Below, one piece after another: positions 17,899-21,711 of a stretch of DNA of 32,000 nucleotides. The notes under the pieces were generated by a model, which did not search any database, was not told the DNA's origin, and worked only from the letters and a program-made list of their open reading frames with translations. Both the position numbers and the translations under genes were made by a program. How positions within the stretch are numbered: position 1 is the first letter of the stretch; each line of letters starts with the position of its first letter. Location: NCBI GenBank assembly GCA_019056805.1, contig DXJG01000002.1, positions 523,103 to 555,102 of the forward strand, in the 5' to 3' direction. Origin of the DNA: Candidatus Baldrarchaeota archaeon (GTDB lineage: Archaea; Asgardarchaeota; Baldrarchaeia; Baldrarchaeales; DXJG01).

Positions 17899-18882
17899 GT
17901 GGAAATTAAAGAACTGGTATATGAAGGAGTAAAACTAGTTTTTGATCCACCTAAATTAAAAACATCAATCGAAGAATTGTTGCTTCAAGTAGGGGGCATT
18001 CTTAGCGAAGCAGTGGTAGTTCTTAAGGGAGGAGATGGAGAAGCATACTACCCAAGTGTGGTTTCATTTCAAAGTGAAAAACTAAGAGAATTGGGACTAA
18101 AAATGGTAAATCTGCTAAAAGATGTAGATATAGAGGTGAAAGGACTCATATATGTTCATTATGATGAATATCTAGCGGAAGAATGTGGGACAGTTGAAAC
18201 AAGTGGCAAAAAGCCTGAAGGATTTATATGTCCTCTAAATGAAATGTACGAAGAACAATTCCTAAAAATACTTGAAGAAATATCACAAATAAACATTGAA
18301 AACCTAATTTTTGCATTAACTGGGTATGCAAGCGGTTCGTATTGTTTCTGTGAAAAATGCAAAGCAACATTCGCCATGGATAGAAGGATGCCCAAAGACT
18401 TTAATCTCACTACTTTACAAGGAGAAAAAGAACTATATAATGAGTGGATAGAATGGAGGAGTAACAACATTGAAATATTTCTCTCAAAAGCAGTTGAAAA
18501 AGCAAAAGAACTAAACATAAATCCCGTCTTTGCTATTGAATTTGATCCTATACTTCGCTTCGAAGAAGGTCTAAAGGAATCTTTGGGTATAGATGTAAAA
18601 AAGGTTGCGAATCTTTTCAACCATTTTATAATTATGGTAAATCCATGGGAAGTACTATTACCAAGGATGGGAAGCAAAGGTTTCAATGAATTAGTTCAAA
18701 GAATCAAAAAATTAAGACGTGAAGTGAACAAAAAACTTTCACTCATGTACTGGCCACCCAACGAAGAAGAACTAAAAACACTTGTACAGTTAAAAGAAGA
18801 AACAAACAGCGAGAATTTATATGTTTTCCTTCAATACCCAGAACAATTCAAAAATTGGAGAGAAATAAGAACTATAACATAA
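17899..18882 (+). CDS. Glycoside-hydrolase-like TIM-barrel protein (GHL10/DUF4015/GH42-like) with a Cys cluster
   Basis: VVVLKGGDGEAYYPS, ICPLNEMY..FLKILEEI, and YCFCEKC..F..(x)..EWIEWR resemble GHL10/GH42-type barrels. Function not assignable. Confidence 0.55.
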   Translation: MEIKELVYEGVKLVFDPPKLKTSIEELLLQVGGILSEAVVVLKGGDGEAYYPSVVSFQSEKLRELGLKMVNLLKDVDIEVKGLIYVHYDEYLAEECGTVETSGKKPEGFICPLNEMYEEQFLKILEEISQINIENLIFALTGYASGSYCFCEKCKATFAMDRRMPKDFNLTTLQGEKELYNEWIEWRSNNIEIFLSKAVEKAKELNINPVFAIEFDPILRFEEGLKESLGIDVKKVANLFNHFIIMVNPWEVLLPRMGSKGFNELVQRIKKLRREVNKKLSLMYWPPNEEELKTLVQLKEETNSENLYVFLQYPEQFKNWREIRTIT

Positions 18883-18904: not shown

Positions 18905-19078
18905 TTATTCCTCTATTATTTCATATTCTCTATCATATATTTCTTCTTCATATCCACATATGGGGCATTCGAAGAAGGGCATAACATCAATAATAGCATT
19001 TGTATCAGGGTTAACGCGTACTCTAATGTATATACGTAACTCTACAGTTTCACCACAACCGGGGCATACGATTTGCAC
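18905..19078 (-). CDS. Small CPxCG zinc-ribbon protein (57 aa), not in the ORF track
   Basis: Manual translation: MQIVCPGCGETVELRIYIRVRVNPDTNAIIDVMPFFECPICGYEEEIYDREYEIIEE. GTG start follows a GGGGGTG SD, and there are two CPxCG motifs. Confidence 0.82.
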   Translation of the reverse strand: MQIVCPGCGETVELRIYIRVRVNPDTNAIIDVMPFFECPICGYEEEIYDREYEIIEE

Positions 19079-19492
19079 AGCAACACCCCCATATTAACTG
19101 TGAAACTTTCACATTAAAACTCTTAATTAAAATTTTCTGGTGGTAATTCGGAGTTACAAAGAATAGATGATTCCAATAAGAACCGTCAAAATACTCGATT
19201 ACAAACAATAAGTGTTATTTATTGTTTAAATAAATTTTAAAAGCCTCAGAGGCCATTTCACCTTTCAAAAGGTTAAACTTTGAATGATAAGTTTACATAA
19301 AATAAATACTTTATCTAGATTAGAGCGAAAATACTCCTTTTCTCTTCATAGCTAATACGGTCTTCACCTTTTCAAGTACTTATGATATTAAGTTTAAGTG
19401 TGTTATATCATAGGTCACAGATATTTATAGTAGAGAATTATGATCGCAACTTTAAAATAGATAATGATATGCAAAGATTTCAGTGATTAACC

Positions 19493-19816
19493 ATGTCAAT
19501 TGAGAACATCGCAAAACAACTAGAAGCTGAAGTAGATAACCTAGTAATAATGGACGAATCAGGTAATATACTAACAAGTAAAGGATCTCTTACTCTCGAT
19601 CCCGATATAATATCAACGATCGAAAATAAAGAACCTTCAGTAACACTTCAGGGAACAAAATATATCACCCTAACCGTGGAAGAAGACAGATATATAGCTT
19701 TAAACATACCACAACAAGAATACTTCGCAGGAATTAAAGTAGAAGACAAATGGATTTTCTTCACCACAAAGGAGGATCCCAAAAACATAATAAACAAAAT
19801 ATGGAAATCCATCTAA
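19493..19816 (+). CDS. Profilin-like protein (Asgard-type)
   Basis: 107 aa: N-helix, LVIMDESGNILTSKG, then SVTLQGTKYITLTVEEDRYIALN, matching the profilin core I/L-x-G-x-K-Y strand-hairpin as I recall it for Asgard profilins, then a C-helix. Confidence 0.78.
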   Translation: MSIENIAKQLEAEVDNLVIMDESGNILTSKGSLTLDPDIISTIENKEPSVTLQGTKYITLTVEEDRYIALNIPQQEYFAGIKVEDKWIFFTTKEDPKNIINKIWKSI

Positions 19817-19829
19817 CCCTCTTTTTCTA
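19817..19829 (+). terminator. Putative oligo-T terminator after the profilin-like gene
   Basis: CCCTCTTTTTCT immediately after the stop codon. Confidence 0.35.
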
Positions 19830-20057
19830 TTAACTAAACAAAATAGCCCGACAAAACTTTAGATTGTACGAACCCCTAATTAACCTTCTTTTCACAGAAA
19901 CAAAAATCCCTTAGTTGTATTTTGTAAAAAGAAAGATATATAAAATATAAAAGCAACAAAAATAAAACCAAAAATCAAATTAGCAAAATAATAATCAGAT
20001 TCTTTTAGTGCAGTATCAAATCGGTCTGGAAGCTGATTGGTGGAGGGGATTATTTAC

Positions 20058-20786
20058 ATGTTGAATGAGAAGGTTAGAACTGGAATTAATGGTCTTGACG
20101 AGTTGCTCGGAGGTGGAATACCAAAGGGATCAACAGTTCTTATTACAGGGGAAGCAGGAACAGGGAAAACAACTCTAGCAGTGCAATATATAGTAAATGG
20201 AATAAAAATGTTCAATGAAAAAGGTCTCATAGTAGTAGCTGGAGAAGATGTCGAAACATTACAAAAATTTATGCTACAATTTGGATGGGATTTAAGACAA
20301 TTTGAAAAGGAAGGAAAACTCGTATTGATAGATTTGACAAGCGTAAAAATTGGGATACCAGCGGATGTGAGATTCACAGAGTTTCAGCTTACAACAACCG
20401 ACATAAAACAACTGATATCGACAATATATAGGGCAGTAAAGCAAAATAATATAAAAAGAGTAGTAATAGACTCTGTACCCAATTTAGTTACGGAAACAAG
20501 TAGTGTAGAAGATTTAAGAACTGCATTATTAATGCTATGTACCCTACTGGGAAGAATTGGCTGTACAACGTTGATAACAACGGAGATACCTGAGGGAGCA
20601 GAAAAATTAAGCACATATGGAATGGAGGAATTCGTAGCATCAGGAATAATAAAATTGATGTTTAAAAAAGAAGGAAATAGATGGATAAGAAAAATACAAG
20701 TAAGAAAAATGAGAGGAACAAAACACAAATTAGAGGAACATGTATTTGAAATAGGAAAAGAAGGAATAAAAATATCAAACAAGTAA
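20058..20786 (+). CDS. Single-domain KaiC/RAD55-like RecA-superfamily ATPase
   Basis: TGINGLDELLGGGIP, Walker A GEAGTGKT, Walker B VVIDS, LITTE, IQVRKMRGTKH. ATG 20058 follows a GGAGGGG SD. Confidence 0.92.
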   Translation: MLNEKVRTGINGLDELLGGGIPKGSTVLITGEAGTGKTTLAVQYIVNGIKMFNEKGLIVVAGEDVETLQKFMLQFGWDLRQFEKEGKLVLIDLTSVKIGIPADVRFTEFQLTTTDIKQLISTIYRAVKQNNIKRVVIDSVPNLVTETSSVEDLRTALLMLCTLLGRIGCTTLITTEIPEGAEKLSTYGMEEFVASGIIKLMFKKEGNRWIRKIQVRKMRGTKHKLEEHVFEIGKEGIKISNK

Positions 20787-20985: not shown

Positions 20986-21711
20986 TTGGGAATATTTGAC
21001 GAGTTATATTTTTGGCTTGAAAGTCTCATATCTATCAATCCTTGGATATCTGCTACATTAATAGGATTTTTCAGTTCATTTGGAGTCTTCTTTTCCTTCG
21101 CACCCTCAATTGTACTATTCATAATTCTTTTTGCGCAGGGATACAACCCCTTATTCATTTCCATATGTGCAGGATTTGGATCTATGATGGGAGAATTGGC
21201 AAGCTACTACCTAGGCTACGTTGGTAAAAAAACCATAGATATTGCTTCAAACAAATTTTCCACAGACATAGAACTTTCACCGAAAATGAAAGACTTCTTC
21301 GCATGGCTAGATAAAGTACTTTACACCATGGGAGAAGAAACGGTCTTCATATTTTCATTAACTCCTCTACCAGATGATCTACTTCTCATCTATTTAGGAG
21401 CCAAAAAATACCCACTACAAAAAATAATTATACCATGCTGGATAGGGAAAACAGGACTTATAGGAATTTACTCCATATTAGGAACAATAGGAGCAAACAT
21501 ACTTCTAACAATGGGCGAAGGATTCCTCGTAACAGCCTCCATAATTATCTCCATAGTATCTCTAGGTATAACCTACCTCGTTCTTAAAAAAGATATTACA
21601 GGAAACCCAGAAAAACTTGTAAAAAAGGTAAAAAAACTAAGAATACTTGCAACAGCAATAATAATAGCAATAATACACCTCTTATTGGGCAAAGATAACT
21701 CAGGTGACTAA
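20986..21711 (+). CDS. DedA/VTT (SNARE-associated Golgi protein) family membrane protein
   Basis: GFGSMMGELASYYLG and FIFSLTPLPDDLLLIYLG motifs in a hydrophobic protein. TTG start after AGGTG. Confidence 0.82.
   Translation: MGIFDELYFWLESLISINPWISATLIGFFSSFGVFFSFAPSIVLFIILFAQGYNPLFISICAGFGSMMGELASYYLGYVGKKTIDIASNKFSTDIELSPKMKDFFAWLDKVLYTMGEETVFIFSLTPLPDDLLLIYLGAKKYPLQKIIIPCWIGKTGLIGIYSILGTIGANILLTMGEGFLVTASIIISIVSLGITYLVLKKDITGNPEKLVKKVKKLRILATAIIIAIIHLLLGKDNSGD

What the first reader, a model, noticed from the sequence alone, without database searches (positions are those of the whole stretch)
19493..19816. Compact profilin-like actin regulator (eukaryotic signature protein)
Seen: a 107-aa ORF with the segment SVTLQGTKYITLTVEEDRYIALN and a profilin-like order of secondary structure. 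Known: Asgard profilins bind and regulate actin. From memory, Loki profilin has a closely similar SIQGIKY...EERKIGTN stretch. Inference: this marks the genome as Asgard. The protein is shorter than the profilins I recall (about 120-140 aa) and appears to have trimmed loops, so it may be a minimal variant.
Basis: partly seen in the sequence, partly recalled or inferred. Interest (0 to 1): 0.72.

Follow-up and report, generated by a model that had tools for sequence, protein, structure and literature searches.

The report
Shortened second profilin of an Asgard archaeon
The 107-residue gene is a real, conserved and unusually short copy of the Asgard archaeal profilin (an actin-monomer-binding protein), sitting in a Baldrarchaeia genome that also has a normal 123-residue profilin and one actin; its fold is certain, but whether it still binds actin is untested.

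Summary
Observation confirmed. Window 19493..19816 (+) encodes a 107-aa protein containing the quoted segment.

**Real gene:** six 107-aa homologues share 78-93% identity, dN/dS is 0.08-0.10, and it has a conserved TATA-like/SD-like leader and a T-tract.

**Profilin homologue:**
- Best PDB sequence hit is 5ZZA_P, OdinProfilin/actin (E 2e-7).
- hhalign to canonical Asgard profilins gives 97.8% probability.
- Two AF2 models, one built without any canonical profilin in the alignment, match profilins first (VIA Z 15.3, 2.0 A, all 107 residues; roadblock Z 9.1 or less).
- An MSA-free ESM Atlas model agrees (TM 0.97).

**Organism:** Asgard. The nearest named relative is a Candidatus Baldrarchaeota MAG.

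the genome also has a canonical 123-aa profilin and one actin, so this is a divergent second copy. It was found only in this genus among 400 Asgard genomes. It lacks about 16 residues at four sites, including the last 7 of the C-terminal helix. It has changed three of the four residues invariant in the 20 canonical Asgard profilins aligned (A to N16, W to L33, G to E76), while keeping the NKEPS..QG.KY / RYIA.N core.

The scan had read this same stretch before in another window. Verdict: a new variant of a known kind, of moderate interest.

The parts
19493..19816 (+). Coding sequence of the 107-aa short profilin paralogue (P0001), stop codon included
   Evidence: ORF. 5ZZA_P E 2.1e-7. AF2 pLDDT 88.9 / pTM 0.81. 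VIA Z 15.3 to OdinProfilin. dN/dS 0.08-0.10.
19442..19461 (+). Conserved upstream block (GATCGCAAC-TTTAAAATA-GA) with a TATA-box-like TTTAAAATA about 40 nt before the ATG; probable archaeal promoter (inferred)
   Evidence: The same block is present upstream of the orthologues in L065 and L005, although the surrounding sequence diverges. No transcript data.
19483..19487 (+). GTGAT, a Shine-Dalgarno-like element 5 nt before the ATG (inferred)
   Evidence: CAGTGATT(A/G)AC(C/T)ATG is conserved in all three genomes.
19820..19828 (+). T-rich tract (TCTTTTTCT) 4 nt after the stop codon; probable archaeal oligo-T terminator (inferred)
   Evidence: A T-tract is present at the same place in L065 and L005. 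No hairpin-type terminator was found.
19625..19705 (+). Codons 45-71: the conserved profilin core (NKEPSVTLQGTKY ... DRYIALN), which is both the best-conserved part of the short family and the part shared with canonical profilins
   Evidence: 23 of 28 positions are invariant across residues 45-72 within the short family. Y57 is invariant, and P48, A69 and N71 are at least 90% conserved across 26 profilin-family sequences.

Best explanation
The ORF encodes a divergent, shortened paralogue of the Asgard archaeal profilin family, in a Baldrarchaeia genome that also encodes a canonical 123-aa profilin (207 kb away on the same contig) and a single eukaryote-like actin.

**Shown**
- It adopts the profilin fold: an N-terminal helix, a seven-stranded sheet with one short helix, and a C-terminal helix.
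- It is under strong purifying selection.
- It appears to be its own transcription unit.

**Inferred mechanism**
- It still docks on monomeric actin through the central beta-sheet face. That face carries the retained NKEPS..QG.KY and RYIA.N motifs.
- It therefore modulates actin polymerisation, but with altered affinity or regulation.
- The reasons for expecting altered behaviour are the loss of the invariant Trp, the loss of the Gly-x-Gly hairpin, the deletion of the Gly before the short helix, and the loss of the distal 7 residues of the C-terminal helix.
- In eukaryotic profilins that distal helix segment, together with N-terminal aromatic residues, forms the polyproline groove. The short form has none of these aromatic residues, so polyproline binding is not expected.
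- It would thus be a sub-functionalised, minimal profilin working beside the canonical one.
For: **Family and fold**
- phmmer to 5ZZA_P, E 2.1e-7. Foldseek names that entry OdinProfilin/Rabbit Actin Complex.
- hhalign of the short against the canonical family: 97.8%, E 9e-13, 88 columns.
- AF2 with the joint alignment: pLDDT 88.9, pTM 0.81.
- Control AF2 with only the six short-family sequences: pLDDT 80.5, same topology.
- Foldseek: the top 26 and top 42 hits respectively are all profilins.
- VIA wide: 5ZZA_P Z 15.3, rmsd 2.0 A, 107 of 107 residues aligned; ten more profilins at Z 9.2-12.7.
- The ESM Atlas model of the family's own cluster superposes at TM 0.97, 0.7 A.

**Real gene**
- All homologues are 107 aa.
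- dN/dS 0.084-0.098.
- Conserved leader and T-tract.
- GC content matches the neighbours.

**Partner present**
- One actin scoring 459 bits to PF00022.

**Actin face**
- Residues 45-72 are the most constrained part within the short family and hold the family-wide conserved residues P48, Y57, A69 and N71.
- The equivalent stretch of heimProfilin shows actin-induced NMR shifts: V79, F84, R88, F95, V96 (PMC8410842).
- The mutationally tested F95 maps to the invariant aromatic Y67.
Against: - No direct or predicted binding data exist.
- Of the four residues invariant in the 20 canonical Asgard profilins aligned, only Y57 is kept. A became N16, W became L33 and G became E76, each now fixed in the short family.
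- Two of the three heimProfilin residues whose alanine mutants weakened inhibition of actin elongation (G63, G104; PMC8410842) correspond to a deletion and to E76. The reported effects were small.
- 26 of 67 class-conserved canonical columns are lost.
- The family stem is very long, 1.45 changes per site, which fits a change of function.
- phmmer aligns only residues 1-84 to 5ZZA_P.
- Pfam PF00235 gives no hit.
Confidence: 0.55

Rival explanations
1. Neofunctionalised profilin-fold protein. The copy kept the scaffold but no longer binds actin and serves another partner. Candidates are the KaiC-like ATPase encoded just downstream, a small GTPase (as roadblock/longin relatives do), or a lipid or peptide ligand.
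For: - Three of four invariant canonical residues are replaced and then fixed.
- The Gly-x-Gly hairpin and the Gly before the short helix, both mapped to the heimProfilin actin face, are lost (PMC8410842).
- The stem branch is very long, yet dN/dS within the family is low. That pattern is typical of a shift to a new constrained function.
- A KaiC-like ATPase follows the gene in two of three genomes.
- A canonical profilin is already present to serve actin.
Against: - The strongest constraint within the short family lies on the same core motif that canonical profilins conserve.
- The KaiC-like gene is absent next to the 93%-identical orthologue. It is separated by 220 bp and a T-tract.
- No alternative partner is indicated by any test.
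Confidence: 0.3
2. It is a Roadblock/LC7/MglB-type (or longin/GAF-type) regulator of small GTPases, not a profilin. This is how JGI labels many relatives of the family.
For: - Several canonical relatives carry the JGI name 'predicted regulator of Ras-like GTPase activity (Roadblock/LC7/MglB family)'.
- Roadblock, MglB and LAMTOR chains appear in the structural lists at Z 7-9.1.
- The folds are known to be related.
Against: - Profilins score far higher: Z 15.3 against 9.1, and 107 against about 91 residues aligned. Foldseek TMq is 0.85 against 0.5 or less, with rmsd 2.1 against 7-9 A.
- Sequence similarity is to solved profilins only.
- No Robl_LC7, longin or GAF Pfam hit appears even at E up to 10.
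Confidence: 0.05
3. It is a decaying or spurious ORF: a truncated remnant of a duplicated profilin with no function.
For: - It is shorter than every intact relative.
- No RNA data are available.
- Another 107-aa relative (P0072) is indeed a frameshifted canonical gene.
Against: - The length is exactly conserved at 107 aa in six distinct sequences.
- dN/dS is about 0.09 with dS up to 1.1.
- The deletions are in frame and spread over four sites.
- The fold prediction is confident.
- Expression signals are conserved.
Confidence: 0.03

Closest known systems
Odinarchaeota profilin (PDB 5ZZA chain P, OdinProfilin/rabbit actin complex; Akil & Robinson 2018, cited in PMC8410842)
   Same: - Best sequence match (E 2.1e-7) and best structural match (Z 15.3, rmsd 2.0 A).
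- Same topology.
- Shared core motif EPS(I/V)..QG.KY...(E/N)EDR.IA.N.
- No N-terminal extension.
   Different: - 107 against 119 aa, about 27% identity.
- Lacks the NW tryptophan, the GxGH hairpin and the last residues of the C-terminal helix.
- Actin binding is shown for Odin profilin and untested here.
The same genome's canonical profilin (P0007, 123 aa, contig C9 about 315.8 kb)
   Same: - Homologous (hhalign 97.8%).
- Shares the D-P-K start of the C-terminal helix.
- The two forms co-occur in both genomes where either was found.
   Different: - P0007 matches all five solved Asgard profilins over its full length (5ZZA 8.7e-23) and approaches PF00235 (19 bits).
- The short form is 27% identical and 16 aa shorter.
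- The two do not group together on the tree, although a shared origin is not rejected (AU p 0.25).
Eukaryotic profilins (Pfam PF00235; e.g. yeast 1YPR, Acanthamoeba 1ACF)
   Same: Same fold (TMq 0.71-0.73, Z 12.6).
   Different: - 13-18% identity and no Pfam hit.
- 18-30 residues shorter.
- No aromatic residues in the N-terminal helix or at the position that PMC8410842 equates with human W32 (T28 here).
- The distal C-terminal helix is missing, so a polyproline groove is not expected (inference).
Multiple profilin paralogues in Asgard genomes (Loki profilin-1/-2; three in L. ossiferum; up to five per genome, PMC13716822)
   Same: A second profilin copy beside a canonical one. Duplications are documented in the family (PMC8410842).
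   Different: The described paralogues are of normal or greater length (Loki loop, N-terminal or C-terminal extensions). No shortened form is described in the literature searched.

Membership tests
Asgard profilin family (as defined by solved 5ZZA, 5YED/5YEE, 5ZZB, 6YRR, 7PBH) | Significant sequence similarity to solved or canonical members | tested here: met
   5ZZA_P E 2.1e-7. hhalign to the canonical profile 97.8%, E 9e-13. The short-family profile hits profilin-sized frames in 136 of 400 Asgard genomes, counting G000 itself.
Asgard profilin family | Profilin fold (alpha-beta-beta-alpha-beta5-alpha) closer to profilins than to roadblock, longin or GAF | tested here: met
   Two AF2 models. 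Top Foldseek hits are all profilins. VIA Z 15.3 against 9.1 or less for roadblock. ESM model TM 0.97. These are predicted structures, not solved ones.
Asgard profilin family | Residues invariant in canonical members (A before strand 1, W of the NW motif, Y of GxKY, second G of GxG) | tested here: not met
   Only Y57 is retained. N16, L33 and E76 replace A, W and G (alignment). This lowers the claim 'typical functional profilin', not the homology.
Asgard profilin family | Binds actin monomers and modulates polymerisation | not testable with these tools
No biochemical data exist. An actin gene is present in the genome.
Asgard profilin family | Phosphoinositide (PIP2) binding | not tested
   Reported for Loki, Odin and Heimdall profilins (PMC8410842). 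No sequence signature was available to test.
Pfam PF00235 Profilin | Score above the gathering cut-off (25 bits) | tested here: not met
   No PF00235 hit even at E up to 10. The canonical paralogue also falls below the cut-off (19 bits), and only 6 of the 67 proteins recovered carry PF00235. The model is eukaryote-centred, so failure is weak evidence.
Eukaryote-type profilin | Polyproline-binding groove (aromatic residues in the N-terminal helix and strand 2, plus the distal C-terminal helix) | tested here: not met
   No aromatic residue in helix 3-11. The position aligned to heimProfilin W53, which PMC8410842 equates with human W32, is T28. The C-terminal helix is 7 residues shorter. This is sequence-level inference only.
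Roadblock/LC7/MglB (PF03259) | Sequence or best structural match to roadblock proteins | tested here: inconclusive
   No Pfam hit. Roadblock chains reach Z 9.1 or less with about 91 residues aligned, well below profilins. The folds are related, so resemblance is expected.

The most novel reading that the evidence does not exclude
The short form is a profilin-derived protein that has left actin regulation. It would be a genus-specific, minimal profilin scaffold re-used for another partner, possibly together with the KaiC-like ATPase encoded downstream in two of three genomes. Alternatively it could act as a competitor that tunes the canonical profilin. Either way it would be a natural example of how the profilin/roadblock superfold is re-purposed within Asgard archaea.
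Probability: 0.3. Interest if true: 0.6.

Novelty: new variant of a known kind. Interest (0 to 1): 0.4.

Why it matters
Asgard profilins are key evidence that a regulated actin cytoskeleton predates eukaryotes. This is the shortest intact profilin-family protein recovered in these searches (107 aa against 119-128 aa for most). It shows which parts of the scaffold can be lost: part of the N-terminal helix and loop, one strand segment and the distal C-terminal helix. It also shows which part cannot be lost: the central NKEPS..QG.KY / RYIA.N sheet.

Paired with a canonical copy and a single actin in a small genome, it offers a simple natural system for asking what a second profilin does. It is also a compact construct for structural work on the minimal actin-binding surface. 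If it no longer binds actin, it documents re-use of a eukaryotic signature protein within archaea.

It does not change the general picture, because profilin paralogy in Asgard archaea is already known.

Tried and rejected
1. **Co-folding** the short profilin with the genome's own actin. The tool did not fold the pair under its screening rule, because the actin looks eukaryote-like. The job was counted and I made no further attempt. This says nothing about binding.
2. **RNA evidence**. No RNA holder is listed and only DNA metagenome runs hold the stretch. I did not lay reads.
3. **First literature search**. It was badly posed: 'profilin' matched 'profiling'. I repeated it.
4. **Akil & Robinson 2018**. 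The paper is not held, so the 5ZZA contact list could not be read. Model coordinates are not exposed in the Python box, so I made no contact or surface analysis.
5. **Long hits of the representative search** (P0010-P0012). These are repeat-driven noise, such as a YadA adhesin.
6. **Other apparently short relatives.** The frames of 103 and 105 aa are cut by contig ends. P0072 (107 aa, Hermodarchaeia) is a canonical gene that goes out of frame. P0070 (112 aa) lacks its N-terminus.
7. **A third 'possible profilin-fold' ORF** flagged earlier on this contig (L069:1663-1980, minus strand). It shows no relation to the profilin profile (hhalign 0.3%) and no Pfam family. I did not fold it.
8. **Origin of the copy.** The tree does not resolve it. 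The weak sister group is P0009 plus an f3 profilin (87/74). A clade with the genome's own canonical profilin is not rejected (AU p 0.25).
9. **KaiC adjacency.** I first read the KaiC-like neighbour as not conserved, then corrected this: it is present in G000 and G006/L005 and absent in L065.
10. **Physico-chemical contrast.** Both paralogues are acidic (pI 4.5-5.8), so this was uninformative.

Full report
**1. The observation.**

Window 19493..19816 (+) is an ATG-to-TAA ORF of 107 codons. The stop-to-stop frame is only 109 codons, so the short length is not a start-codon artefact.

**2. It is a real, maintained gene.**

- The word-index search found five distinct homologues, all exactly 107 aa, at 78-93% identity.
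- The exhaustive representative search found one close 50%-identity cluster.
- The ESM Atlas holds a 183-member cluster with a 107-aa representative, assigned to Promethearchaeota, i.e. Asgard.
- Pairwise dN/dS among three genomes is 0.084-0.098, with dS from 0.33 to 1.19. The canonical paralogue gives 0.054.
- Upstream of the gene, three genomes share a block holding TTTAAAATA about 40 nt before the ATG and a GTGAT 5 nt before it. A T-tract follows the stop. I read these as an archaeal promoter, a ribosome-binding site and a terminator of a single-gene unit. That reading is inference, because no RNA run holds the locus.
- GC and GC3 match the neighbouring genes. The flanks are ordinary chromosomal genes: an M42 peptidase, QueC and a cupin.

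**3. What it is.**

*Sequence.*
- Pfam gives nothing meaningful: no PF00235 hit, and no roadblock, longin or GAF hit.
- Against all PDB sequences the best hit is 5ZZA chain P (E 2.1e-7, query residues 1-84). A weak hit to 7PBH 'Profilin' follows.
- Foldseek's description identifies 5ZZA as 'OdinProfilin/Rabbit Actin Complex'.
- A 1.4-Mb Asgard genome in the phylum scan encodes the same sequence as that chain (L014).
- Profile-profile comparison of the short family with canonical profilins gives 97.8% probability, E 9e-13, over 88 columns.

*Structure.*
- AlphaFold2 with a joint alignment gives pLDDT 88.9 and pTM 0.81, with topology H3-11, E16-21, E26-30, H39-44, five further strands, then H96-106.
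- That alignment contained canonical profilins, so I repeated the fold with the six short-family sequences alone. The result was pLDDT 80.5, pTM 0.76 and the same topology.
- Both models hit only profilins at the top of Foldseek/PDB: 26 and 42 consecutive profilin hits, with 5ZZA_P first at TMq 0.85 and 0.78.
- The Foldseek-independent VIA search gives 5ZZA_P Z 15.3, rmsd 2.0 A, with all 107 residues aligned. Ten further profilins follow at Z 9.2-12.7. Roadblock, MglB and LAMTOR begin at Z 9.1 with about 91 residues aligned.
- The MSA-free ESM model of the family's Atlas cluster superposes on my model at TM 0.97, 0.7 A.

**4. The organism.**

- The only related locus in the species-level genome collection is from 'Candidatus Baldrarchaeota archaeon isolate Yap30.bin4.67' (79% identity).
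- The window's genome is 1.92 Mb in 18 contigs and 91% complete.
- The short-family profile hits profilin-sized frames in 136 of 400 genomes of the same phylum, counting this genome itself.

The inference 'this genome is Asgard' holds.

**5.

The genome encodes a second profilin, P0007. It is 123 aa and lies on the same contig about 207 kb away.
- P0007 matches all five solved Asgard profilins over its full length: 5ZZA 8.7e-23, 7PBH 1.4e-15, then 5ZZB, 6YRR and 5YED.
- It nearly reaches PF00235 (19 bits against a cut-off of 25).

The genome also has one actin of 382 aa (PF00022 462 bits), about 70-80% identical to the main actins of other Asgard genomes.

So the 107-aa ORF is the divergent copy of two.
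- In the phylum scan the high-scoring form (about 220 bits) occurs only in this genome and one congener, G006.
- G006 also has both copies.
- Two other congeners (82-84% complete) and the one genome of the same order (96% complete) show neither copy with these profiles.

**6. Anatomy of the shortening.**

In the 26-sequence alignment the short family lacks residues at four sites:
- 3 residues (2 relative to the Odin-type sequences) between the N-terminal helix and strand 1.
- 1 residue, a Gly present in 80% of canonical sequences, before the short helix.
- 3 residues at the start of the last strand.
- 7 residues at the end of the C-terminal helix.

VIA likewise aligns the model's end to residue 114 of the 119 residues modelled for 5ZZA_P.

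Conservation counts:
- Of 67 columns conserved by residue class in the 20 canonical sequences, P0001 keeps 41, of which 25 are identical.
- Of the four columns strictly invariant in the canonical set, only Y57 is kept.
- The other three are now N16 (was A), L33 (was the W of the 'NW' motif) and E76 (was the second G of GxG). N16 and L33 are invariant within the short family, and E76 is present in 5 of 6.

Is it the shortest?
- Among related proteins in the 5.8-billion-sequence collection, lengths cluster at 119-128 aa.
- The other short entries are artefacts. Two frames are cut by contig ends, one is a frameshifted gene and one is an N-terminally truncated call.

The 'minimal variant' idea is thus supported, with one correction: helix and strand segments are trimmed, not just loops.

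**7. Does it still work on actin?**

This is the open point.

*For:*
- The most constrained stretch within the short family is residues 45-72, with 23 of 28 positions invariant. That stretch is also the family-wide conserved core: P48, Y57, A69 and N71.
- In heimProfilin the equivalent stretch shows actin-induced NMR shifts at V79, F84, R88, F95 and V96 (PMC8410842).
- I checked that the 6YRR numbering in the tool alignment agrees with the paper's residue list. Thirteen of the fourteen listed residues that fall in the aligned range match; N36 reads S36.
- With that register, the mutationally tested F95 maps to Y67, an invariant aromatic residue.

*Against:*
- The other two tested residues do not survive. 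G63 maps to the one-residue deletion and G104 maps to E76. The reported mutant effects were small relative to their spread (PMC8410842).
- The stem of the short family is very long at 1.45 changes per site. A long stem followed by strong constraint is the usual signature of a functional shift.

*The polyproline groove:*
- The distal part of the C-terminal helix, which is deleted here, forms the polyproline groove in eukaryotic profilins together with N-terminal aromatic residues (established knowledge).
- The short form has no aromatic residue in its N-terminal helix. It has T28 where heimProfilin has W53, which PMC8410842 equates with human W32.
- I therefore expect no polyproline binding.
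- Polyproline binding was also not detected for the Loki and Odin profilins (PMC8410842), so this does not argue against membership.

My estimate is about 0.5-0.55 that it still binds actin monomers through the sheet face, and about 0.3 that it has a different partner.

**8. Origin.**

- A maximum-likelihood tree of 30 sequences places the short family as a fully supported clade.
- That clade attaches weakly (87/74) to P0009 plus a profilin from another Asgard family, not to its own genome's canonical copy.
- The backbone is unresolved, and an AU test does not reject a clade of short plus own-canonical sequences (p 0.25).

Lineage-specific duplication with acceleration, an older paralogy, and transfer within Asgard all remain possible.

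**9. Neighbourhood.**

The gene order is: a 327-aa ORF with no Pfam family, a 57-aa zinc ribbon on the minus strand, the short profilin, a KaiC-like single-domain ATPase, then a VTT/DedA membrane protein.
- This order is shared by G000 and G006/L005.
- In the 93%-identical relative L065 the ATPase is missing, and a DUF2085 gene plus an 83-aa ORF lie upstream instead.

The ATPase link is therefore not obligatory, and I treat it only as a lead.

**10. Comparison with what is known, and novelty.**

- Asgard profilins, their structures and their action on actin are established (PMC8410842 and its reference 5).
- Duplications in the family are documented (PMC8410842).
- Up to five profilins per genome are reported, and in L. 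ossiferum only one of three profilins was significantly enriched in an actin co-IP (PMC13716822).
- I found no description of a shortened subfamily or of Baldrarchaeia profilins in the held literature.

I therefore class this as a new variant of a known kind. It is homologous to profilins and has the profilin fold. It departs from the canonical signature in length and in three invariant residues, and its function is untested. Interest is moderate (0.4).

Its follow-up was withheld and I did not use it.

Noticed in passing
window 20037-20786 (+): A single-domain KaiC-like ATPase (PF06745, 236 bits) lies directly downstream of the short profilin. The same adjacency, with a 72%-identical ATPase, is present in congener G006/L005. 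It is absent in the 93%-identical relative L065.
   Followed up: partly
window 17899-18882 (+) and 18905-19078 (-): A 327-aa ORF with no Pfam family and a 57-aa four-cysteine zinc-ribbon ORF are conserved upstream of the short profilin in all three genomes examined. Function unknown.
   Followed up: no
window 20986-21711 (+): A VTT/DedA-domain membrane protein (PF09335, 34.6 bits). It lies downstream of the locus and is directly adjacent to the short profilin in L065.
   Followed up: no
G005 (same order, 96% complete): This genome has two actin-family matches but no hit to either the short or the canonical profilin profile at E up to 0.01. It holds either a very divergent profilin or none.
   Followed up: no
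P0072 (Candidatus Hermodarchaeia, 107 aa): A canonical profilin gene that departs from the family sequence after 'NVRGQ' into an Arg/Cys-rich tail. This looks like a frameshift, from assembly error or a pseudogene, and mimics a short form.
   Followed up: partly
ESM Atlas cluster, 412 aa, PF01978 TrmB (row 3): An Asgard cluster of TrmB-N-terminal-domain proteins contains a module that superposes on the short profilin model at TM 0.81 by query. A profilin-like or roadblock-like domain may be fused to a transcription regulator.
   Followed up: no
one search hit list: Many canonical Asgard profilin-family proteins are labelled by JGI as 'predicted regulator of Ras-like GTPase activity (Roadblock/LC7/MglB family)', and only a few carry PF00235. 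Annotation of this family in public data is inconsistent.
   Followed up: no
L069:1663-1980 (-) = G000 contig C9 about 192.2 kb: A 106-aa ORF earlier flagged by the scan as 'possible profilin-fold' shows no relation to the profilin profile (hhalign 0.3%) and has no Pfam family. Its fold was not predicted here.
   Followed up: partly
Loci L022, L026, L030, L034 (family f20): Proteins of about 219-226 aa have an N-terminal profilin-like domain and a conserved C-terminal extension of about 90 aa. They are common in one large Asgard family, with frames of 210-255 aa.
   Followed up: no
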